Assembly: GCA_050874545.1 (NCBI GenBank)
Contig: JBNMKW010000004.1
Coordinates: 3,184 to 67,183, forward strand
Source: Megasphaera sp.
GTDB taxonomy: Bacteria > Bacillota > Negativicutes > Veillonellales > Megasphaeraceae
Length of the DNA: 64,000 bases
Direction of reading: 5' to 3'
The notes under the pieces were generated by a model, which was not told the origin of the DNA, made no database searches, and saw nothing but the letters and a program-made list of their open reading frames with translations. Numbering within the stretch: position 1 is the first letter of the stretch; every line of letters begins with the position of its first letter. A program made the position numbers and the translations under genes. Positions 3,786-37,153 of this stretch are shown piece by piece.

Positions 3786-4640
3786 TTAAATGATTTTTCG
3801 TATGACCATGACAAGTATATTGCTGACAGCGATAGCCGCAACGAGCAGCACACTCACTGTCACAAAGGGCGTAATAAATACAAGTATATTATTTTGTGAA
3901 ATAGGCATGCATCGGAAAATGACCGTACTAAATACGTGCATATTACTGTTAAAAAGCATATATAAACTTCCCAGCCAAACGACAGCCATACCGACAATGC
4001 GAACGAGCTGAATCCCCCGTTCTTTCATCGGCAGTGTTTTAGCCGGAAAGAAATAAAACGCTATCACAGCTAACACAATGACCCCCATCGCCATAAACCC
4101 GAATCCAATAATGCCCAGCATGCCAATGACCAAACTCTGCGTAACATTGCCGGCTACGCTCGGAAATAAAAACATGCCCATCAAGGCGCACGGCAACGGA
4201 AAACTATATAATACAGGGTCTAAAAATTCAGAATACCAGCAGCTTCGCGTATGTGCCTGCCAATACGCCGTTGCCCAGGAAGCCAACGCCTGCAGCAGGA
4301 TGGTACCTGCCATCCAGCAAGTAAAGACTGTCACCCGCATCGCGTACTGCTGCCAAAACGGGTAGGACATCAATCCGTTTAAAATACCTATGGCTGCCAG
4401 CAAAACCACCAGACTGCCATAAAGAATGGAGCCGACAGGCGCATATACAGACTTATCATAACGTTTCATCTGCCGCAGCCGCATTGTCACAGGCATGCTC
4501 AACGATAAGACCAAAAATACAAGCAGCGACAACGGCGCAAAAAAACTTCGGTCTGAAGCAAATGCGCCAAAGGGAATGGGCAGTATCCAAATAGCCAGCT
4601 GTAATACAGCCCGTATATTAGGTTTTATACGCTGTATCAT
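3786..4640 (-). CDS. Hypothetical multi-pass membrane protein
   Basis: 284 aa with about 8 hydrophobic segments; AAGGAGG-like SD inside the upstream gene end; no recognised motif. Confidence 0.7.
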   Translation of the reverse strand: MIQRIKPNIRAVLQLAIWILPIPFGAFASDRSFFAPLSLLVFLVLSLSMPVTMRLRQMKRYDKSVYAPVGSILYGSLVVLLAAIGILNGLMSYPFWQQYAMRVTVFTCWMAGTILLQALASWATAYWQAHTRSCWYSEFLDPVLYSFPLPCALMGMFLFPSVAGNVTQSLVIGMLGIIGFGFMAMGVIVLAVIAFYFFPAKTLPMKERGIQLVRIVGMAVVWLGSLYMLFNSNMHVFSTVIFRCMPISQNNILVFITPFVTVSVLLVAAIAVSNILVMVIRKII

Positions 4641-4643
4641 CGT

Positions 4644-5066
4644 CTACCTTCTTTCTACGTGCCGCAGTCCCAAGCAGGATACGCCGTATGCCAACAACAT
4701 AATTACACAAACTTTGATATACATGCCAACGATAAAGAGAATGTCACGGCCAATGGTCGGCCATTCCCAGAATGACGAGTTTTTCCATATATCCCCCATA
4801 AACGCGCTAAACACGGCAAAAGCAACCGAAACAACAATCCACATAATGACAAAGGCTGTCCGGCTAATAGGTCGCTGCCGCGCGCCAAATGCTGCTTCTT
4901 TACAGCCCAAATACGCCCAAGGAATACATAAGGACAACACAGCATAGCTCACCAAGGCCACAACGGCACTGGAACCGTTATGTATCGTATACGCACCAAT
5001 GGGAATCGGGATAATAAAGAAACACATGCGCACGCATTGGCGCAAAATATCGCAACATCCACTCAT
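4644..5066 (-). CDS. Hypothetical membrane protein, apparent paralogue of the downstream gene's N-terminal half
   Basis: 140 aa, about 4 TM; GGAGG RBS; shares the I-x-PIP-x-GA...VLSL-x-x-P pattern. Confidence 0.7.
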   Translation of the reverse strand: MSGCCDILRQCVRMCFFIIPIPIGAYTIHNGSSAVVALVSYAVLSLCIPWAYLGCKEAAFGARQRPISRTAFVIMWIVVSVAFAVFSAFMGDIWKNSSFWEWPTIGRDILFIVGMYIKVCVIMLLAYGVSCLGLRHVERR

Positions 5067-5235
5067 GAAGCTACCTCCAAACTCGTTAGATACTCTTATT
5101 CTAATAGATAAAGTATATCATAGTTTTTCATCCATGGATAGGAGAATACCGCATGATGTCTATTGCGAAAAGCACAGGTCTTGTGTACAATATTTATAGA
5201 TAATCATTAGCATTGTACAGAAAGGTATACACATT

Positions 5236-13724: not shown

Positions 13725-13801
13725 TGGTGACCCGGTAGGGATTCGAACCCTAGACCTACTGATTCGTAGTCAGTCACTCTATCCAGCTGAGCTACCGAGT
13801 C
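13725..13801 (-). tRNA. tRNA-Arg (anticodon ACG)
   Basis: GACTCGG/CCGGGTC acceptor stem, D arm AGCTCAGCTGGATAGAG, anticodon arm ACTGA-CTACGAA-TCAGT, T loop GGTTCGAATCC, encoded CCA; upstream TTGACA...TATAAT promoter. Confidence 0.97.
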
Positions 13802-28827: not shown

Positions 28828-29592
28828 TTATAACGAATTTCCTCCCAACTGAATAGACGCCACAGAAAGAAGAAATACCAGTCCCAGCAACGCCATTTCG
28901 CTGCCTTCCAATACTGCACCATAGGTATCTCCAGTAACACCGCCTAAAATACGGGTCAAATACCGATTGGCAGCCAAAGACAGCAGCATAGCTGCACCCA
29001 AAAGAACTAAGTATAAAAAACCGCTGTATATCACAGGCAGCAATGCCAAGACAAAGGCCCCTTTCATGGTATATGGCGGCGCATACTGCCGAAATGCTTT
29101 CCCCAGCCCCTGTTCTCTGGCATAGGAAAACTGAAAAATGCTAATAAGCGTACCAAACCGCGCAGCTGCTGGAATACCTGCCAGCGCCGCTAACGCCATA
29201 TCGGGAGCACAATTTGCCAAAAAGCAAATTTTTAACGACACTAAAAAGAAAAACGCAATAATACCGTTAGACCCAACACAGCTGTCTTTTAGTATTTCCA
29301 GCATCCGTTCTCGACTCCTGCCGGAAAATATACCATCCGCCGTATCCATGAAGCCATCGGCATGCAGTCCTCCTGTAATAAAAAGCCAAGCTAACACGAC
29401 AAGCAGCGACCGATACGGCTCACCCAAGATGACACTGCATCCTGTATACACCAAAGCAAGCAGGATACCGATAAGCCATCCAACTAAAGGGAACCATAAC
29501 ACAGCCCGCCCAAAATCCTCATTCGTCCAGACCGTTTGCTTAACAAGCTGGATGCGGGATAAAAACTGCAGTGCAATCAAAAAAGACTTCAT
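28828..29592 (-). CDS. cobS: Adenosylcobinamide-GDP ribazoletransferase (cobalamin synthase)
   Basis: ALQFLSRI, TGGLHADGFMDTADG, ILKDSCVGSNG, GGVTGDTYGA; start at ATG 29592 overlapping the cobU stop. Confidence 0.93.
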   Translation of the reverse strand: MKSFLIALQFLSRIQLVKQTVWTNEDFGRAVLWFPLVGWLIGILLALVYTGCSVILGEPYRSLLVVLAWLFITGGLHADGFMDTADGIFSGRSRERMLEILKDSCVGSNGIIAFFFLVSLKICFLANCAPDMALAALAGIPAAARFGTLISIFQFSYAREQGLGKAFRQYAPPYTMKGAFVLALLPVIYSGFLYLVLLGAAMLLSLAANRYLTRILGGVTGDTYGAVLEGSEMALLGLVFLLSVASIQLGGNSL

Positions 29593-30161
29593 ATCGTTCC
29601 TCCCAGCCGTACTTGCCGGCTTTTTAGTTCTATTGTAATGCCGCAAATGGTCGCGTATACTTCTGCCGCTTCTGCTGCCGCTTTCTGATTCACTGCGCCA
29701 ATCAATTCCCGATACAGTCGGCTGATTCGTCCCATCGGCACAATACCGCATCCCAATTCATTCGTAACAAACACGACTGTTTTTCCATTTGATGCGTGAA
29801 TGCACCGGCAAGTCTGCTTTATCTCCTGCAGTGCTTTTTCTATAATCACATCGTCTTCTTCAGCTTCATGGGCAAACAAAAAATTCGAGAAATACATTGT
29901 CAGACAATCCACCAACACCACATCGGCTTCCTGTAAAATCTGCGGCATCCGACGCGGCATGTCACACGGCATTTCTACCGTCTGCCAGCTGCTTGGCCGT
30001 CGTTTTTGATGCACAGTAATTTTCCGCTTCATTTCCTCATCCAATGCCTTGGCCGTTGCCACATAGATTTTGCGGCCTGCGCACGTTTTCAAATAGGTTT
30101 CTGCAAAAACGCTTTTGCCGCTCTTGGCTCCTCCCGTTACTAATATACATTTTCCTGACAT
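29589..30161 (-). CDS. cobU: Bifunctional adenosylcobinamide kinase / guanylyltransferase
   Basis: LVTGGAKSGKS, HQKRRP, LVDCLT, VTNELGCGIVP. Confidence 0.94.
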   Translation of the reverse strand: MSGKCILVTGGAKSGKSVFAETYLKTCAGRKIYVATAKALDEEMKRKITVHQKRRPSSWQTVEMPCDMPRRMPQILQEADVVLVDCLTMYFSNFLFAHEAEEDDVIIEKALQEIKQTCRCIHASNGKTVVFVTNELGCGIVPMGRISRLYRELIGAVNQKAAAEAAEVYATICGITIELKSRQVRLGGTI

Positions 30162-30853: not shown

Positions 30854-31115
30854 AATATTGCCTCCTTTTGCATACGAAATGTATGTTCCTTGTTCTTATA
30901 TAGTAATAATTCGACTTTCTATCATAAATTCCTACTTGCATTTTATAGAATCCTCTAAATCATATATCTCAATTTATCATAAAAGCAGCTGCAGGTGTTG
31001 TAAAATTTTTCCATTCCCGTATAATAGAAAAGGTATGTACAGTATGTAATATATTCTGTATGCATCATTCATTTATGGTTAGTAAAGATGGCATCTTGAA
31101 AGGAGATTTTGGCTT

Positions 31116-31565
31116 ATGCTACGAAAAATTACAGCGTTACTCGCCATGCTTACGCTCACAGGATCTATGCTGGTTTCAGCTATGTTCTTTGACGATAATC
31201 CCCGTTATATTCAAGTCGGCCATGACGATACGACAGAATCCTATATTGATACGACTTCCATTCAAAACGTTCGTTATGATCCGCCATATTATATGATTCG
31301 CGCAACTGTCATCACCTATGATTATACGACAAATACCGCTACCGGGTACGAAAATAATTTTTTCTACAACTTTAAAGGGCAAACTGTAAAAGCACAGACG
31401 ATTGCAACCTGTGTCTATAATGAAGACGGTACGCCGTCTCCCGCTGCACCGATAGCAAATCCAGAAGTAAATCTCTGTGACAGATATTCTGTCAATGGAA
31501 AAGCGGCAGACAATGCGTTCTTTAGCTGTTACAATATGACCTTTTATCATACATTTACCAACTAA
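31116..31565 (+). CDS. Hypothetical secreted protein
   Basis: Signal-peptide-like N-terminus ending in VSA; AAGGAG RBS; no recognised domain. Confidence 0.7.
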   Translation: MLRKITALLAMLTLTGSMLVSAMFFDDNPRYIQVGHDDTTESYIDTTSIQNVRYDPPYYMIRATVITYDYTTNTATGYENNFFYNFKGQTVKAQTIATCVYNEDGTPSPAAPIANPEVNLCDRYSVNGKAADNAFFSCYNMTFYHTFTN

Positions 31566-31600
31566 AGGCAACACCATTTTAACATAAAGGATTTGATAGC

Positions 31601-32563
31601 ATGGATTCATTACTTCACATCGGCGGTACGCTCGTCGCATTAATATTCTTTGGAGCTGTTATCTACTCACTTACGACTTCCTATCGCAAGCGGCAGCAAA
31701 AAGCACAGTACCAAAAAGACTTGACAGCCAAAAAACACGTACAGGTAAAACAACTGCACCAATACGATGTAACACCACAAAACGGATATTATATGTATCC
31801 TATTCCAGATGGAAAACAACTGAACCGGTATCCGCAGACATTTACAGCCATATCTGTCACGCTTGCCAGTAAACAGCCTTACTCTATCTGCTTAATTGGA
31901 TTTGCAGAATTTGAAAAAGGAGAACTAAAAGATACGCATTATTTCTATGTTCGTCCTCCTGAAGCCATTCACTCGATTAAAAACCATCCTGAATTGACAT
32001 GGGAAATTCTCAGCAAAGCCGATGAATTCGGCGAATATTGGAACGCCGGCATGAAAGACTATTTCACGACGCATACGCTGGTAGCTCATCATGCATCTTA
32101 TGTGTTAGGCTGCGTTGCCCATGCGCTAAAAATATACGGCATCGATATGCCGCCAGTTCATTATATTGATACGCTGGAAACAGCTAAGACTCTCTATCAT
32201 TTTTCTTCCAACCAACTTCCTGTAGTCTGCCAAGAAATGGACATCGAGCTAGATGAAAAAAACACCTTAAGTGCTGCCGCTGCTACCGGCCAATTTCTTA
32301 TCAAGGCTAAACAAGACTATCCCATGTATCTTCCTGCCATCCATTATCTATACAAAGATCCTGCAGAAAAGCAGCAACTGGCAAGTATTATTGCAGCTGT
32401 AGAACGGGAAGAATGCACACCGGAAGAAATGTTTGCACCCAATCCGGTAAATCAATCCATACTGCAGACACTGCTAGACAAAAAATATATCGAACCGGGA
32501 GAAAAAGAAGGCACATATTACGCCACCAATGAAGGGCTTGACTTTTCAGAATCTGTCAACTAA
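31601..32563 (+). CDS. Membrane-anchored DEDDh (DnaQ-like) exonuclease homologue with degenerate active site
   Basis: N-terminal TM; FTAISVTLA...SICLIG...VRPPE, LVAHHASY, YIDTLETAK align with the DnaQ-like fold. Confidence 0.65.
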   Translation: MDSLLHIGGTLVALIFFGAVIYSLTTSYRKRQQKAQYQKDLTAKKHVQVKQLHQYDVTPQNGYYMYPIPDGKQLNRYPQTFTAISVTLASKQPYSICLIGFAEFEKGELKDTHYFYVRPPEAIHSIKNHPELTWEILSKADEFGEYWNAGMKDYFTTHTLVAHHASYVLGCVAHALKIYGIDMPPVHYIDTLETAKTLYHFSSNQLPVVCQEMDIELDEKNTLSAAAATGQFLIKAKQDYPMYLPAIHYLYKDPAEKQQLASIIAAVEREECTPEEMFAPNPVNQSILQTLLDKKYIEPGEKEGTYYATNEGLDFSESVN

Positions 32564-32571
32564 CCGGTTGT

Positions 32572-32614
32572 AAAAAGACAATTGTTACATTTCAGTCACA
32601 ATTGTCTTTTTTTT
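32572..32614 (+). terminator. Intrinsic terminator
   Basis: AAAAAGACAATTGT-N12-ACAATTGTCTTTTT plus T run. Confidence 0.85.
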
Positions 32615-32672: not shown

Positions 32673-33227
32673 ATGAAAAAATTCTCACATATGCTTGCCG
32701 TCGCAGCGTTAAGCATGTCTACTGCTGCCTTAGCCACACTATCCGTTGCCGCCTTGACAACACAAAAGCAACCATCGTCCATACAACAGCCAAGCCGTTA
32801 TGACATGCCAAATTATGTATTAACAGACAGTGCTTCCTATGCAGTATCCAAAGTGCTGATTGTCAACGGTAAAAAACTGGATGTACAGCCTTTGCAAATG
32901 AATACCTGTTTTCTTGTACCAGCTCGTGCTGTCAGTGATGCATTGGGATTTACGACACGCTGGGATGCCGCTGAACAAGCTGTAACGATAGTCGGCCCCT
33001 ACATGAAAACAACGCAGTATCTAGGCATAGATTTTTCCAGTGCCGTAACAACAATTCCCGGCGCAGTCGGCATGACAGCACCTGCTTCGTTTGGAGCCGC
33101 TCCACTATTAGTGAATAACACTGCCTATGTACCTGTAGAAATTTTTAAAATTATTCAGGGAAATGATCCTAACACACTCACTATCACTGACAAAACTATT
33201 GAATTAAAAACCATCACAACCAAATAA
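32673..33227 (+). CDS. Secreted protein with copper amine oxidase N-terminal (stalk)-like domain
   Basis: Signal peptide; LVPARAVSDALGFTTRWD and APLLVNNTAYVPV motifs; AAGGAGG RBS. Confidence 0.78.
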   Translation: MKKFSHMLAVAALSMSTAALATLSVAALTTQKQPSSIQQPSRYDMPNYVLTDSASYAVSKVLIVNGKKLDVQPLQMNTCFLVPARAVSDALGFTTRWDAAEQAVTIVGPYMKTTQYLGIDFSSAVTTIPGAVGMTAPASFGAAPLLVNNTAYVPVEIFKIIQGNDPNTLTITDKTIELKTITTK

Positions 33228-34178: not shown

Positions 34179-35585
34179 TTATTTCTTTTCAAAATCAATT
34201 ACTTTTCCCGGATTCAGAATCCAATTCGGGTCGATTGCTTTCTTAATGGTTTTCATCAATTCCAGTTCGACAGGATCGGTGTATTCTTCCATATATGCCA
34301 AGCGTTTGAGACCAATCCCATGTTCTCCCGAAAGGCGGCCGCCCAACCCGTATACGTATTTATATGCCGTAGCACGGAATTCTTTTAACTGTTTTACCCA
34401 TTCTTCATCGCTCATATCACATTTTAAAATTTGGAAATGCAAGTTGCCATCACCGGCATGAGCTAAACAAAATACTCGGAAATCGTATTTTTTGCTTTCT
34501 TTTACTAATGTTTGAATGCAGTCAGCAATCTTAGTTACTGGTACAACTAAATCTTCCGAAGTAGCTACTTTTGAAAAAACGCGCGTACTTTCCAAGCAGT
34601 TACGGCGAACTTTCCAAACGCGGTCATCGGCTTCTACTACATCCGTAGCCCCGCATTCTTCACAAATAGCTGCCAATTTTTCCATTTTATCATCTAATTC
34701 ACCTTCATTAAATGTTTCAATAGAAATAATATCATAACAGCCGTCTTCATAATGAGGCAAACGCAGTTCACTATAATCGCTGGCACTGCGAACAAAGTTA
34801 TTATCCATAAATTCAACCGATGTAGGATTTAAACCTGCTTTGACTAATTTAGGTACCAATGCCGTTGCCTTTGCCAAATCCGTAAAGACAGCCAATACAT
34901 CCAAACGGTACGGGCAAAGCGGCACTAATTTCAACGTCGCTTTAGTAATAATCCCTAAGGTACCTTCTGAACCAATAATCAGCTGATCCAAACAAAAGCC
35001 TGTAGAACATTTTTTCAGCGTAGCTCCCAAATGAGCAATTTTACCAGTCGGCAGTACGACTTCAATAGAATATACTTGGTGGCGTGTCGTGCCATATCGA
35101 ACAGCTTTATTGCCGCCGGCATTAGTTGCTAAATTGCCGCCAATCAAGCAGCTGTCTGAACTGCACGGGTCACCGGCGTACATAAGGCCTTTGGAATTTG
35201 CCAAATTTTGAATGTCAATCGTACGAACACCAGCTTCAACAGTCATATACATACCGTCTTCATTCAATTCCAAAATTTTATTCATTCGTTCCATCAATAC
35301 TACAATGCCTTCATATGCAGGAACGGCTCCACAGCTGACACTCGTACCGGCACTGCGCGGTGTAACCGGTACATGATATTGATTGGCTAATTTCATGATC
35401 GCTGCTACTTCTTCTGTACAGCCCGGCAACACGACTACTTCCGGTGTATGCCAAAATGAAGGAGCCAAACTTTCATCGGATTTATATACATCCAATACAT
35501 CGGCATCGGTTTTTACATTTTTATCACCAACAATATCTTTTAATGCTTGTATTACTTCATCTGTAACTTTATTATAGGGTTTCAT
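34179..35585 (-). CDS. FAD-linked D-2-hydroxyacid (D-lactate) dehydrogenase, GlcD-like
   Basis: GGNLATNAGG, IGSEGTLGIIT, HAGDGNLH, SGEHGIG, LNPGKV; GAGGAG RBS. Confidence 0.88.
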   Translation of the reverse strand: MKPYNKVTDEVIQALKDIVGDKNVKTDADVLDVYKSDESLAPSFWHTPEVVVLPGCTEEVAAIMKLANQYHVPVTPRSAGTSVSCGAVPAYEGIVVLMERMNKILELNEDGMYMTVEAGVRTIDIQNLANSKGLMYAGDPCSSDSCLIGGNLATNAGGNKAVRYGTTRHQVYSIEVVLPTGKIAHLGATLKKCSTGFCLDQLIIGSEGTLGIITKATLKLVPLCPYRLDVLAVFTDLAKATALVPKLVKAGLNPTSVEFMDNNFVRSASDYSELRLPHYEDGCYDIISIETFNEGELDDKMEKLAAICEECGATDVVEADDRVWKVRRNCLESTRVFSKVATSEDLVVPVTKIADCIQTLVKESKKYDFRVFCLAHAGDGNLHFQILKCDMSDEEWVKQLKEFRATAYKYVYGLGGRLSGEHGIGLKRLAYMEEYTDPVELELMKTIKKAIDPNWILNPGKVIDFEKK

Positions 35586-35739
35586 TATACTTCTCCTCAC
35601 TAATTCGCAACTTAAGTTTCTTCTAGTGCAACACTAGGTTGCAACATAACTATTATAGTACAAATTAAGCGATTTGTCTTCCCACCTTTTTTTATTTTTT
35701 TGCATATGTAGCTTATATTTTTTATATTTTTGCATACAG

Positions 35740-35788
35740 AAAAAAGGTAGAACGTATAAACAAAGAAATTATACGTTTTACCTTTTTT
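35740..35788 (-). terminator. Terminator after larA
   Basis: AAAAAGGTAGAACGTATAA...TTATACGTTTTACCTTTTT. Confidence 0.8.
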
Positions 35789-35816
35789 CGTATTTCTTTT
35801 AATTATTGAAATAAAT

Positions 35817-37115
35817 TTATTTTAATACAGGGAATGTCGCCGCAGCATGACCCATAATCGTAACTGTATAGTCCTTCTTGCCTTCGCTGGCTAATTCAGC
35901 CTGTGCCATGTTCCAAGCCTCTTCCAATGTCGCTGCCGGAATTTGGCCGCTCTGCCGAATAATGTCAAAATTTTCCGGACGCGTAACGATGTATACCTGT
36001 TTCATCGAATTGATAATACAATGTGTCTTAAAAGCAACAAAGGCCGGAATGGAAAAGTCTGCACGCAAGTCTTTTTCAAAGGCACTCATATCACTGCGGA
36101 AAAACCAATCTGTAAAAATAGCCGGTTCCTTGATGTCCGGGCAATCCAGTGTAAAAATCATAATACCGCCGGGTTTAGTCGCAAATACTGCGTTCATATG
36201 GGCTTTCGTACTTTGGTACAGATTCATGTCCTTAGGATAGCCACCGGCAGAACCAATCGTTACGTCCGCTTGTTTTTGAATGGTCACGCTGGCAATACGC
36301 AGCAAATCTTCGCAGCCTTTTTTCCATGCTTCATACCAATGACCGCCCACTACTTCGTATAAATCTCCGTCAGCAGTAAACACGGTGTTAACTAAAAATG
36401 CTGGATTGAGCAGTGCTGCGGCCTGACGCATATCATCATGCAGCGGATTATGTTCCAATAAACTCGTTTCACACAGGGGGTTGCAGCCGCCGCCAATTTC
36501 ATCAGTCAACGCCAAGGCATGATTGCGCATAATCGTTTCATAACTGGAAATTCCAGGAAGCACGCTTTTGCGGCCGCCACCAAATCCAGCCATCGGGTGG
36601 AATGATACGGCACCCGTTAAAATGACTTTGTCTGCTTCTACAGCGCGTCTGTCCAAGAAAATATCATTTCCATGTGTTGTCGTGCCGACTTTGACTAAAT
36701 TGGCTTCGTCACGGCAGTCATGATTGACAATGCGAAGACGCTGAACCATTTCTTTGCCGCAAACGACGACATTTTCTTCCGGTGTATGTGCCCGGTGCGT
36801 CCCCTGCGCAGTAATGACTGTAATTTGTTCATCTTTTACGCCTATGGCATTGAGTTCTTCTACAATAACAGGCAGCATTTGTGCTGTATGAACGATGCGT
36901 GTAATATCACTGACAACAATGGCCACCGTATCCGTCGCTTGGATGACTTCCCGAAGCGGCGCACTGCCAATAGGATGACGCAGGGCCTGACGTACGGCTG
37001 CCGCTTCATCTTTTACGGTTTCTACTTGATTACCGTGTAAATCATATAATATATGCGATTCATCCAACGATACTGTTTGGATACCTTTTCCACAAGGGAG
37101 AGAAAATGTTTTCAT
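35817..37115 (-). CDS. larA: Nickel-pincer-dependent alpha-hydroxyacid racemase, LarA family
   Basis: SDITR, GTHR, NHD, AGFGGGRKSVLPG, NH, GGYPKDMNLYQSTKA; start at ATG 37115 with AGGAG RBS. Confidence 0.85.
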   Translation of the reverse strand: MKTFSLPCGKGIQTVSLDESHILYDLHGNQVETVKDEAAAVRQALRHPIGSAPLREVIQATDTVAIVVSDITRIVHTAQMLPVIVEELNAIGVKDEQITVITAQGTHRAHTPEENVVVCGKEMVQRLRIVNHDCRDEANLVKVGTTTHGNDIFLDRRAVEADKVILTGAVSFHPMAGFGGGRKSVLPGISSYETIMRNHALALTDEIGGGCNPLCETSLLEHNPLHDDMRQAAALLNPAFLVNTVFTADGDLYEVVGGHWYEAWKKGCEDLLRIASVTIQKQADVTIGSAGGYPKDMNLYQSTKAHMNAVFATKPGGIMIFTLDCPDIKEPAIFTDWFFRSDMSAFEKDLRADFSIPAFVAFKTHCIINSMKQVYIVTRPENFDIIRQSGQIPAATLEEAWNMAQAELASEGKKDYTVTIMGHAAATFPVLK

Positions 37116-37153
37116 TTGGTTAGCTCCTAACTGCATTACATATCAAAAATTTT

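What the first reader, a model, noticed from the sequence alone, without database searches (positions are those of the whole stretch)
31601..32563. Membrane-tethered, catalytically dead DEDDh exonuclease with a winged-helix-like tail
Seen: one N-terminal TM helix followed by a basic stretch (YRKRQQK), which implies a cytoplasmic C-terminus by the positive-inside rule. A DnaQ-like domain follows in which every catalytic position is altered: ExoI AIDFETA is AISVTLA (31841-31867), ExoII AHNxxFD is AHHASYV, and ExoIII HxALxDA is NTLSAA. Flanking scaffold motifs (SICxIG, VRP, IDTLxxAK) are kept. The last 60 or so residues (LQTLLDKKYIEPGEKEGTYYATNEG) fit a winged-helix recognition helix and wing. 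The ORF is intact and has its own terminator. Established: DEDDh activity needs the four acidic residues plus His. Inference: a pseudo-nuclease repurposed as a nucleic-acid end or nucleotide sensor or scaffold at the membrane, for example a one-component regulator, DNA-uptake accessory or defence sensor. This is my best candidate for an undescribed system.
Basis: partly seen in the sequence, partly recalled or inferred. Interest (0 to 1): 0.7.

Follow-up and report, generated by a model that had tools for sequence, protein, structure and literature searches.

The report
Membrane-tethered dead exonuclease, phage-derived
This gene encodes a membrane-anchored copy of a DNA-trimming enzyme that lost its catalytic residues long ago yet is strictly conserved in Megasphaera gut bacteria, and its closest working relatives sit in the immunity region of dormant viruses, so it looks like a viral defence-type nuclease that the host kept for a non-cutting job still unknown.

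Summary
ORF 31601-32563 (+) encodes a 320-aa protein with four parts: an N-out/C-in TM helix, a basic juxtamembrane stretch, a DnaQ/DEDDh-fold domain and a winged-helix-fold tail (AF2 pLDDT 89). The DnaQ-fold domain passes the Pfam RNase_T gathering cut-off, and Foldseek matches it to DinG-exo, PolC-exo and ε.

The catalytic site is dead across the family. The ExoI Asp is Ser/Ala and the ExoII Asp is Val/Leu in all 32 sequences, and the other three catalytic positions drift.

The gene is not decaying. dN/dS is 0.04-0.15 in every domain. There is one copy at a fixed locus beside mog in 28 of 30 Megasphaera/Anaeroglobus/Colibacter reference genomes. RNA contigs cover it.

Three things are new:
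- All five sampled catalytically intact, TM-anchored relatives lie in prophage lysogeny modules, in the order repressor, exonuclease, integrase.
- A lineage-specific secreted 149-aa protein gene lies directly upstream in 26 of 30 genomes and is probably co-transcribed.
- The winged-helix tail is strongly acidic (pI 4.4), so classical DNA binding by it is doubtful.

Best reading: a domesticated, non-catalytic binding module derived from a prophage immunity-region exonuclease. Its ligand and role are unknown. I rate it a new variant of a known kind, of moderate interest.

The parts
30998..31025 (+). Candidate sigma-70-type promoter (TTGTAA-16-TATAAT) upstream of the two-gene unit
   Evidence: Consensus scan, 10 of 12 matches. 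The number of such sites in the region is not above the shuffle expectation, so this is only a candidate.
31116..31565 (+). Upstream partner gene: 149-aa secreted protein. It has a signal peptide ending ..VSA before MFFDDNPRY and no known domain. It is lineage-specific.
   Evidence: ORF. No Pfam, PHROG or PADLOC hit and no PDB profile hit. Homologues are found only in the same lineage. It lies directly upstream on the same strand in 26 of 30 reference genomes at 55-97% identity (alignments A2 and A4). An RNA contig bridges the two genes in a M. elsdenii-like locus.
31586..31591 (+). Ribosome-binding site AAAGGA, 9 nt before the ATG
   Evidence: Read directly from the sequence.
31601..32563 (+). 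Pseudo-exonuclease ORF, 320 aa plus stop
31616..31681 (+). Single TM helix (about residues 6-27) with family-invariant A19, Y22 and S23
   Evidence: Hydropathy 2.0-2.5 in all members. AF2 predicts a continuous helix over residues 2-43. Invariant columns. dN/dS is about 0-0.1 in most pairs.
31682..31750 (+). Basic juxtamembrane stretch (residues 28-50, net +7). It sets the N-out/C-in topology.
   Evidence: family mean +6.7, range 3-9.
31751..31834 (+). Conserved linker (residues 51-78, LHQYD..P..GYY.YP). It corresponds to the LP..NGFAR linker of intact TM-anchored relatives.
   Evidence: Alignment A1. Relatives' sequences. Profile matches of the relatives start at profile positions 18-60.
31835..32320 (+). 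DnaQ/DEDDh-fold domain (residues 79-240), catalytically dead
   Evidence: Pfam above the gathering cut-off. Foldseek PDB and viral library, where the best hit is a gut siphovirus exonuclease (E 1e-12, rmsd 1.6 A). Catalytic positions tabulated.
31847..31867 (+). ExoI remnant AISVTLA. The Asp position is S85 (Ser 20, Ala 12 in the family). The Glu position is T87 (Glu kept in 17 of 32).
32084..32104 (+). ExoII remnant AHHASYV. The Asp position is V168 (Val 30, Leu 2). The H-N/H-A-x-F/Y residues are retained.
32258..32278 (+). ExoIII remnant KNTLSAA. The His position is K220 (variable; His kept in 7 of 32). The Asp position is A225 (Q, A, E or K).
32366..32560 (+). Acidic winged-helix-fold tail (residues 256-320: three helices, a beta-hairpin wing, then a terminal helix)
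   Evidence: AF2. Foldseek hits are all winged-helix proteins. HTH_45 hits 22 of 25 members at sub-threshold scores. Net charge -8, pI 4.4. No homologue outside the family.
32572..32611 (+). Intrinsic terminator hairpin followed by a U-run
   Evidence: dG -20.1 kcal/mol, z -6.8.

Best explanation
WHAT IT IS (shown). It is a single-pass inner-membrane protein with its bulk in the cytoplasm. The bulk consists of a DnaQ/DEDDh-fold domain that cannot carry out two-metal catalysis, followed by an acidic winged-helix-fold tail. The ExoI Asp and the ExoII Asp are replaced by Ser/Ala and Val/Leu in every member. It is a vertically inherited, single-copy core gene of Megasphaera, Anaeroglobus and Colibacter under strong purifying selection. 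In most species it is preceded by, and probably co-transcribed with, a lineage-specific secreted protein gene.

WHERE IT CAME FROM (inferred from phylogeny and context). It descends from membrane-anchored, catalytically intact DEDDh exonucleases. In other Firmicutes these sit in the prophage lysogeny module between the CI-type repressor and the integrase. Genes in that slot are expressed in the lysogen and typically exclude or attack incoming DNA.

HOW IT MOST LIKELY WORKS (inference). It binds instead of cutting. The old substrate cleft keeps its non-catalytic lining: H163, N/H164, A165, F/Y167, the QPYSIC motif and the IDT motif. It can therefore plausibly still hold a nucleic-acid 3' end or a nucleotide at the inner face of the membrane. 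The features that are newly and strictly conserved in this family are the TM helix residues A19, Y22 and S23, the linker, and the acidic winged-helix tail. These probably couple that binding to other proteins in a membrane complex. I consider it an exapted, non-catalytic adaptor with a lineage-specific housekeeping-type role rather than a mobile defence gene. The ligand is not identified.
For: - Fold and homology.
- Dead site in all members, with drift at the remaining catalytic positions while neighbouring scaffold residues stay fixed.
- Purifying selection in all domains (NG86 dN/dS 0.04-0.15, 14 pairs).
- Restricted to 30 Megasphaeraceae species representatives.
- Divergent mog gene upstream in 28 of 30 genomes.
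- Transcribed pieces in four gut metatranscriptomes.
- RNA contig bridging partner and pseudo-exonuclease.
- Partner gene present in 26 of 30 genomes.
- The dead clade is sister to TM-anchored DEDHD clades in an NJ tree.
- 118 of 135 nearest representatives keep DEDHD, and 28 of those have an N-terminal TM.
- Five of five sampled intact TM-anchored relatives lie in the repressor-exonuclease-integrase slot, on different phage backbones and with both serine and tyrosine integrases.
- Soluble relatives occupy the same kind of slot in S. pneumoniae and C. tetani phages.
- Precedent that prophage DEDDh exonucleases with auxiliary domains can defend without nuclease activity: PMC13344964.
- Precedent for bacterial pseudo-exonuclease domains (pExoDinG): PMC11981726.
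Against: - No binding, localisation or phenotype data exist, so the ligand is a guess.
- The cytoplasmic part is strongly acidic (exonuclease domain -8, tail -8). This is unfavourable for extended nucleic-acid binding, although catalytic DEDDh enzymes are often acidic too (own knowledge).
- Conservation of the H-N-A-x-F/Y residues could be purely structural.
- The partner gene is absent in the basal M. micronuciformis/Anaeroglobus clade and in L019, so it cannot be essential to the core function.
- The partner is predicted to be a cleaved periplasmic protein, while the pseudo-exonuclease exposes only about 5 residues outside. A direct contact is therefore not obvious.
- The NJ tree is a quick distance tree with midpoint rooting and no support values.
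- The RNA evidence comes from assembled contigs, which can contain DNA.
Confidence: 0.4

Rival explanations
1. Rival 1: pure protein-protein scaffold or sequestering factor. The dead DnaQ fold and the acidic winged-helix tail bind a protein rather than nucleic acid, for example a basic DNA-binding protein, a polymerase or clamp subunit, or a regulator. This holds or releases the protein at the membrane, in the manner of an anti-sigma factor or membrane-tethered adaptor.
For: The tail is acidic (pI 4.4) and the exonuclease domain is acidic, across the family. Many winged-helix domains in the Foldseek list are protein-interaction modules, such as the cullin WHB domain, the MotA activation domain, the RIO2 wH and methyltransferase dimerisation wH domains. 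Family-specific invariant residues are concentrated in the TM helix, linker and tail, not in the old cleft. The gene is a core, syntenic, housekeeping-like gene.
Against: No partner is identified. The only conserved neighbour is secreted and so lies on the other side of the membrane. The non-catalytic residues lining the cleft remain conserved.
Confidence: 0.3
2. Rival 2: it is still an exclusion or defence factor against incoming DNA (phage, conjugative or transforming). It works without catalysis, for example by capping or trapping the entering 3' end at the inner membrane, possibly together with the periplasmic partner.
For: The ancestry lies in the prophage repressor-integrase slot, the classical place for superinfection-exclusion genes. 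There are weak matches to the PADLOC candidate PDC-S48 and the cas-associated DEDDh model. Nuclease-dead mutants of some prophage DEDDh 'TONDO' proteins still protect (PMC13344964). A membrane-anchored exonuclease, Mpr, defends mycobacteria (PMC12596739). A pairing of one periplasmic and one inner-membrane component fits a DNA-entry checkpoint.
Against: Defence genes are usually patchy, mobile and fast-evolving. This gene is single-copy, at a fixed locus in 28 of 30 genomes, and has dN/dS around 0.05-0.1. There is no defence island or mobile element around it in the window. In Mpr, nuclease activity is required for defence.
Confidence: 0.2
3. Rival 3: a cryptic enzyme. The domain still hydrolyses nucleic acid, or another phosphoester, using non-canonical residues.
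For: Glu at the ExoI position survives in 17 of 32 members, His in 7 of 32, and an acidic residue at position 225 in 8 of 32. Some degenerate DEDD proteins, such as yeast Pop2/Caf1 and the MAEL domain, are reported to keep activity (own knowledge).
Against: The two Asp residues at ExoI and ExoII are hydrophobic or small in all 32 sequences. In characterised DEDD enzymes their substitution abolishes activity (established knowledge, for example ε D12A and Klenow D355A/D424A). The remaining catalytic positions vary freely, which is the opposite of what an active site shows.
Confidence: 0.05
4. Rival 4: a non-functional relic or pseudogene of a prophage exonuclease.
For: The catalytic residues are lost.
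Against: The 318-322-aa ORF is intact in almost all of the 30 species, with a 356-aa form in two. dN/dS is 0.04-0.15 in every domain, 43 columns are invariant, and RNA contigs cover the gene.
Confidence: 0.01

Closest known systems
DnaQ-like DEDDh 3'-5' exonucleases (Pfam PF00929 RNase_T; Pol III ε, PolC exonuclease domain, DinG N-terminal exonuclease, ExoX, RNase T)
   Same: Same RNase H-like fold and the same order of the ExoI, ExoII and ExoIII segments. The sequence match is above the Pfam gathering score. The scaffold motifs are retained (SIC.IG, PPE, AHNA.F, IDT).
   Different: All five catalytic positions are substituted in the window protein. Two of the four acidic residues are lost in every family member. 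The protein also has an N-terminal TM anchor and a winged-helix tail.
Unnamed group of TM-anchored, catalytically intact DEDDh exonucleases in prophage lysogeny modules of Firmicutes (for example WP_301874428.1 from Dialister, 'exonuclease domain-containing protein'; DAZ49939.1 and DAQ37646.1 from Caudoviricetes MAGs)
   Same: N-terminal TM helix followed by a basic stretch. A homologous linker before the exonuclease domain. The same exonuclease sub-clade motifs (Q-P-F/Y-S-I-C after ExoI, G-C after ExoII, PPE). These are the nearest sequence relatives (E 1e-39 to 1e-35).
   Different: They keep D-E-D-H-D. They carry a different tail (a SAP-like motif, BRCT or TPR-like) with no detectable similarity to the winged-helix tail. 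They lie between repressor and integrase in prophages, not at a fixed chromosomal locus.
PRK06195 / NF004844-type 'DNA polymerase III subunit epsilon' (exonuclease plus BRCT tail), including the pneumococcal prophage IPP43 exonuclease
   Same: It is the best NCBIfam match for the exonuclease domain (E 1e-16). It belongs to the same exonuclease sub-clade and also occurs in prophage lysogeny modules.
   Different: The score of 61 is far below the cut-off of 373. There is no BRCT tail, and the window protein is dead and TM-anchored.
Pseudo-exonuclease domains: bacterial pExoDinG (PMC11981726); eukaryotic Exuperantia, the ESRP1 N-terminal domain (PDB 7wrn, which appears in the fold hits) and the PML PXL module
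   Same: A DEDD fold retained without its catalytic residues and reused as a binding or scaffold module.
   Different: Unrelated lineages and architectures. None is membrane-anchored or fused to a winged-helix tail.
TREX1 (ER-tethered DEDDh exonuclease) and mycobacterial Mpr (TM-anchored 3'-5' exonuclease phage defence, PMC12596739)
   Same: The concept of a cytosol-facing exonuclease tethered to a membrane by a single TM helix to deal with foreign or misplaced DNA. This is relevant to the intact relatives and the inferred ancestry.
   Different: TREX1 is anchored by a C-terminal TM and is active. Mpr is not a DnaQ-fold protein by sequence, and it needs its nuclease activity. The window protein is catalytically dead.
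TONDO prophage DEDDh exonucleases (bioRxiv 2026, PMC13344964)
   Same: Prophage-borne DEDDh domains with variable auxiliary domains. For some of them, defence persists in nuclease-dead mutants.
   Different: They were defined as ISG20-like proteins acting on RNA phages in gammaproteobacteria.

Membership tests
DEDDh / DnaQ-like exonuclease superfamily (PF00929) | Sequence match at or above the Pfam gathering score | tested here: met
   27.3 bits against a cut-off of 24, residues 91-218.
DEDDh / DnaQ-like exonuclease superfamily (PF00929) | RNase H-like exonuclease fold | tested here: met
   AF2 pLDDT 89. Foldseek hits: DinG-exo 8zef E 3e-9, PolC, ε, ExoX, RNase T. Viral exonuclease hit at rmsd 1.6 A.
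DEDDh / DnaQ-like exonuclease superfamily (PF00929) | Four invariant acidic residues (D, E, D, D) that bind two metal ions | tested here: not met
   S85, T87, V168 and A225 in the window protein. The ExoI Asp and the ExoII Asp are absent in 32 of 32 family sequences.
DEDDh / DnaQ-like exonuclease superfamily (PF00929) | General-base His in ExoIII (the 'h' subtype) | tested here: not met
   K220 in the window protein. His is kept in only 7 of 32 members.
NCBIfam NF004844 (PRK06195, Pol III ε-like exonuclease plus BRCT) | Whole-protein score above the curated cut-off, with the C-terminal BRCT-type region present | tested here: not met
   61.1 bits against 373. Only profile positions 3-163 of 309 are matched.
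Winged helix-turn-helix DNA-binding domains (for example Pfam HTH_45, Sso10a, PadR, MarR) | Three-helix bundle plus beta-hairpin wing | tested here: met
   In the tail-only model, every top Foldseek hit is a winged-helix protein (TM 0.56-0.68, rmsd 2.4-4 A), though E is only 0.02-0.1.
Winged helix-turn-helix DNA-binding domains (for example Pfam HTH_45, Sso10a, PadR, MarR) | Sequence match above a family threshold | tested here: not met
   HTH_45 scores 16.1 bits against a cut-off of 25.5. It hits 22 of 25 members, best E 0.0012. Sso10a NCBIfam E 0.18.
Winged helix-turn-helix DNA-binding domains (for example Pfam HTH_45, Sso10a, PadR, MarR) | Basic DNA-contacting surface and actual DNA binding | tested here: inconclusive
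   The tail has net charge -8 and pI 4.4. The H3-wing segment is about neutral at -1. Binding itself cannot be tested here.
Prophage lysogeny-module TM-anchored DEDDh exonucleases (unnamed) | N-terminal TM anchor, basic stretch and homologous linker, followed by an exonuclease domain of the same sub-clade | tested here: met
Prophage lysogeny-module TM-anchored DEDDh exonucleases (unnamed) | Intact DEDDh site | tested here: not met
   Relatives read DEDHD and the family does not.
Prophage lysogeny-module TM-anchored DEDDh exonucleases (unnamed) | Location between the CI-type repressor and the integrase of a prophage | tested here: not met
   The window neighbours are mog, cobU, cobS, rpsD and an FAD-linked oxidase. 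The mog neighbour is found in 28 of 30 genomes.
PADLOC candidate defence system PDC-S48 | Full-length match to the PDC-S48 protein model | tested here: not met
   E 3.5e-9, covering only profile positions 78-227 of 411. No paper on PDC-S48 was found.
Superinfection-exclusion / anti-phage function | Reduces infection or DNA entry when expressed | not testable with these tools
   Needs phage or conjugation assays.

The most novel reading that the evidence does not exclude
The membrane-anchored DEDDh exonucleases found in the repressor-integrase slot of many Firmicute prophages may be a new class of prophage-encoded superinfection-exclusion nuclease. They would degrade incoming DNA at the inner membrane, a bacterial counterpart of TREX1 or Mpr. 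On this reading, the Megasphaeraceae protein is a domesticated version that the host fixed in its core genome together with a periplasmic partner. It would still gate DNA entry by holding, not cutting, the entering 3' end, which would make it a catalysis-independent, two-compartment DNA-entry checkpoint.
Probability: 0.2. Interest if true: 0.75.

Novelty: new variant of a known kind. Interest (0 to 1): 0.55.

Why it matters
Conserved pseudo-enzymes are good pointers to non-obvious functions. In this case a nuclease fold has been kept for a very long time, across Megasphaera, Anaeroglobus and Colibacter, without its chemistry, and it is tethered to the membrane. The link to catalytically intact relatives gives an evolutionary route from a phage-borne immunity gene to a host core gene. 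It also flags a widespread, uncharacterised candidate class of prophage exclusion nucleases that could be tested directly. Megasphaera species are abundant rumen, gut and vaginal bacteria with few genetic tools and few known phage-host determinants. A lineage-specific membrane protein pair of this kind is therefore a useful handle on envelope or DNA-entry biology in diderm Firmicutes.

Tried and rejected
- Relaxed selection or pseudogene: rejected (dN/dS 0.04-0.15).
- Tail shared with the intact relatives: rejected. hhalign of the tail profile against their post-exonuclease regions gives probability 0.15%. The apparent extension of HMM matches to profile position 302 and of PDC-S48 to residue 303 is therefore not evidence of homology.
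- Tail domain in other architectures: a word-indexed profile search found only fragments of the same family.
- Partner protein identity: no Pfam, PHROG, PADLOC or PDB hit, and no homologue outside the lineage.
- Cap15 cyclic-dinucleotide receptor (E 0.034), COX14 and other weak Pfam hits: treated as noise.
- Rfam: nothing near the locus. The only hit in the window is a tRNA at 13728-13801.
- Prophage remnant around the window gene: none seen.
- Downstream 184-aa gene as a conserved partner: rejected. It is found in 7 of the 30 reference loci, the six nearest relatives plus L022 at 45% identity.
- Literature: no paper on PDC-S48, and no paper on bacterial TM-anchored DnaQ-type exonucleases among those searched.
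Full report
1. THE OBSERVATION

The ORF at 31601-32563 (+) is intact, starts with ATG and encodes 320 aa. An AAAGGA ribosome-binding site lies 9 nt upstream. A strong hairpin with a U-run follows at 32572-32611 (dG -20.1 kcal/mol, z -6.8).

The protein begins with a hydrophobic helix. The best 19-residue window is residues 3-21, and AF2 predicts a continuous helix over residues 2-43. An acidic N-terminus (MD) precedes the helix. Residues 28-50, just after it, carry net +7, and this charge pattern is conserved in all relatives. By the positive-inside rule the bulk of the protein is cytoplasmic.

Residues 79-240 are a DnaQ-type domain:
- Pfam RNase_T scores 27.3 bits against a gathering score of 24.
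- NCBIfam PRK06195 gives E 1e-16, far below that family's own cut-off.
- phmmer against the PDB finds the PolC exonuclease domain and ε.
- A high-confidence AF2 model (pLDDT 89.3, pTM 0.82) superposes on the S. aureus DinG exonuclease domain, PolC, ε, ExoX and RNase T.
- It fits a gut-siphovirus exonuclease even better (E 1e-12, rmsd 1.6 A).

Aligned to intact relatives, the five catalytic positions D-E-D-H-D read S85, T87, V168, K220 and A225.

2. THE FAMILY

A search of 5.8 billion proteins found 49 relatives at 46-92% identity. Nearly all are 318-322 aa, and the only source names given are Megasphaera.

In the GTDB species representatives, the gene occurs once per genome in 30 species of Megasphaera, Anaeroglobus and Colibacter.

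Across 32 sequences, the catalytic positions behave as follows:
- ExoI Asp position: Ser (20) or Ala (12).
- ExoII Asp position: Val (30) or Leu (2).
- ExoI Glu position: Glu survives in 17.
- ExoIII His position: His survives in 7.
- ExoIII Asp position: Q, A, E or K.

The neighbouring scaffold residues stay fixed (A89, Q92-P-Y-S95, H163, A165, F/Y167, G170-C171, D190). This is the signature of a site whose chemistry was abandoned while the fold was kept.

Nei-Gojobori dN/dS for 14 informative pairs is 0.04-0.15 overall. It is similarly low in the TM region, linker, exonuclease domain and tail. The 'relaxed selection' refutation therefore fails.

The locus is fixed. The divergent mog gene lies 0.2-1.3 kb upstream in 28 of 30 genomes, and rpsD is often downstream.

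Contigs from four gut metatranscriptome runs cover parts of the ORF, for example 32137-32453 at 100% identity.

3. THE TAIL

AF2 gives helix 256-266, helix 274-278, helix 285-293, a beta-hairpin (297-299 and 306-308) and a last helix (310-318).

A tail-only model (pLDDT 80) returns only winged-helix proteins from the PDB: Sso10a (TM 0.65-0.68, rmsd 2.4-2.5 A), PadR-like, ArsR, MarR, TubR and SSV1 F-93. E-values are modest (0.02-0.1), as expected for 78 residues. Pfam HTH_45 matches 22 of 25 family tails at the same helix-wing position but below threshold. The winged-helix fold is supported.

The tail is strongly acidic, however. Net charge is -8, pI is 4.4 and the family mean is -8.8. I therefore do not accept it as a DNA-recognition module without experiment.

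The tail has no detectable homologue outside the family. It shows no profile-profile similarity to the post-exonuclease regions of the nearest intact relatives.

4. WHERE IT COMES FROM

An exhaustive HMMER profile search of 1.84 billion cluster representatives gave 3832 hits at E no greater than 0.001, but only 20 at E below 1e-30.

Immediately beyond the family lie three groups:
- Two short, tail-less, half-degenerate proteins (P0055 and P0059).
- Proteins of 340-354 aa (P0060, P0063, P0066, P0071) with an N-terminal TM helix, a basic stretch, a homologous linker (LP..NGFAR), an intact DEDDh domain with the same sub-clade motifs, and a tail with a SAP-like motif.
- Relatives with or without a TM helix that carry BRCT-like or TPR-like tails.

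Of 135 representatives of at least 180 aa, 118 keep D-E-D-H-D, and 28 of those have an N-terminal TM helix. In a quick NJ tree, the dead family plus P0055/P0059 form one clade next to the TM-anchored intact clades.

Cluster members of the intact relatives come from Dialister, Acidaminococcus and 'Caudoviricetes sp.' MAGs.

Their genomic context is very consistent. In all five TM-anchored intact relatives examined, the gene follows a CI-type repressor on the same strand. These were P0212, P0198, P0096, P0149 and P0126, which lie on different phage backbones. The repressor is HTH_3 with Peptidase_S24, or HTH_3 plus an ImmA-like M78 peptidase, or Phage_CI_repr. The gene lies opposite the Cro-like gene and the early genes. 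It precedes the integrase, which is a serine recombinase in three cases and a tyrosine integrase in one. The fifth contig ends before an integrase could be seen.

A soluble exonuclease-plus-BRCT relative occupies the same place in pneumococcal prophage IPP43. Another is the last gene before attR in C. tetani phage phiCT9441A.

From established phage biology, this is the slot of genes expressed in the lysogen, including superinfection-exclusion and defence genes. I infer that the intact proteins are prophage-borne, membrane-tethered exonucleases aimed at incoming DNA. I also infer that the Megasphaeraceae gene is a domesticated, inactivated descendant of such a gene. Neither inference is tested.

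5. THE PARTNER

A 149-aa ORF (31116-31565) lies 35 nt upstream on the same strand. It has a typical signal peptide and no known domain.

A homologue at 55-97% identity sits directly upstream of the pseudo-exonuclease in 26 of the 30 reference genomes. It is absent in the basal M. micronuciformis/Anaeroglobus clade, where the intergenic space is only 194 bp, and in L019. L037 lacks the flanking sequence needed to tell. The partner occurs nowhere outside this lineage.

In a M. elsdenii-like locus, one RNA contig spans the junction of the two genes (L029 3871-4243). This is consistent with co-transcription, but these are assembled contigs that may include DNA.

6. HOW IT PROBABLY WORKS

Shown: the protein cannot perform canonical two-metal DEDD catalysis, it is membrane-tethered with a cytoplasmic body, and it is functionally constrained.

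Inferred: it acts by binding. Two observations guide the guess. First, the non-catalytic lining of the old cleft (H-N-A-x-F/Y, QPYSIC, IDT) is conserved. Second, the residues that are newly invariant in this family lie elsewhere: in the TM helix (A19, Y22, S23), in the linker (H46, D56, R76, P78) and in the tail (VEREE, TYYAT, GL). These are the places where new protein contacts would be made.

I therefore favour a non-catalytic adaptor that may still hold a 3' end or a nucleotide and is wired into a membrane complex (confidence 0.4).

The rivals are:
- A pure protein scaffold or sequestering factor (0.3). The acidity of the exonuclease domain and tail favours this.
- A still-operating, catalysis-independent DNA-entry exclusion factor (0.2). 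The ancestry favours this, as does the report that some prophage DEDDh 'TONDO' proteins protect even when nuclease-dead (PMC13344964). The core-gene behaviour of the locus argues against it.
- A cryptic enzyme (0.05).
- A dead relic (0.01).

7. COMPARISON WITH WHAT IS KNOWN

The protein is a structural member of the DnaQ/DEDDh superfamily. It fails the defining catalytic features, so it should be called a pseudo-exonuclease, not an exonuclease or 'Pol III epsilon'.

It is not a member of PRK06195 (score 61 against 373, and no BRCT tail) or of PADLOC PDC-S48 (partial match only).

Pseudo-exonuclease domains are known, for example bacterial pExoDinG (PMC11981726) and eukaryotic Exuperantia, ESRP1 and PML-PXL. 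None has this architecture.

Membrane-tethered exonucleases are known too: TREX1, and mycobacterial Mpr, whose defence requires nuclease activity (PMC12596739). These are analogues of the intact relatives, not of the dead protein.

I found no publication on this family or on the prophage TM-anchored exonucleases.

8. VERDICT

This is a real, conserved and uncharacterised protein: a new variant of a known kind.

The most useful new facts are the prophage lysogeny-module ancestry, the fixed chromosomal locus and the co-inherited secreted partner. Interest is moderate (0.55). It would rise if the intact relatives prove to be exclusion nucleases and the dead protein proves to gate DNA entry.

Noticed in passing
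L007-L011, L048-L050 (for example L007 7093-11096; L050 5564-8822): Catalytically intact, N-terminally TM-anchored DEDDh exonucleases occupy the repressor-exonuclease-integrase slot of at least four different prophage backbones, with both serine and tyrosine integrases. They look like an uncharacterised class of lysogeny-module (superinfection-exclusion?) genes.
   Followed up: partly
window 31116-31565: A lineage-specific 149-aa secreted protein with no known domain. It is more conserved than the pseudo-exonuclease in near relatives (up to 97% identity) and is co-inherited with it in 26 of 30 genomes. Its function is unknown.
   Followed up: partly
window 32673-33227: A 184-aa secreted protein with a copper amine oxidase N-terminal-like domain (PF07833, E 1e-11). 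Among the 30 reference loci it lies downstream of the pseudo-exonuclease in seven (the six nearest relatives plus L022 at 45% identity), so it is not part of the conserved unit.
   Followed up: partly
window 28828-29751 (-): The longest cobS ORF is 307 aa. The Pfam CobS match starts at residue 60 and orthologues in related contigs are 241-253 aa, so the real start is probably an internal Met (around MKSFLIALQF).
   Followed up: no
P0055, P0059 (L044 5001-5753): Two 250-aa, tail-less, TM-anchored relatives with partly degenerate sites (S-E-L-H-H and E-V-T-E-Q). P0059 is chromosomal, divergent from an FAD-linked oxidase gene. They may represent an independent or intermediate stage of inactivation in another lineage.
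   Followed up: partly
L028, L041 (M. paucivorans, M. sueciensis), 4001-5071: In these species the orthologue is 356 aa. It carries about 36 extra residues at the C-terminal end, after the winged-helix tail.
   Followed up: no
L029 4982-5016: A stretch of about 35 nt just downstream of the M. elsdenii orthologue recurs inside many unrelated RNA contigs of several runs, with loose ends on both sides. It looks like a short dispersed repeat or shared terminator element. The very high RNA depth beyond about position 5040 is the adjacent rpsD gene on the minus strand.
   Followed up: no
window 34179-37136 (-): An FAD-linked oxidase (probably D-lactate dehydrogenase-like) lies next to a LarA-type lactate racemase. 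This is an ordinary lactate-utilisation pair for Megasphaera.
   Followed up: no
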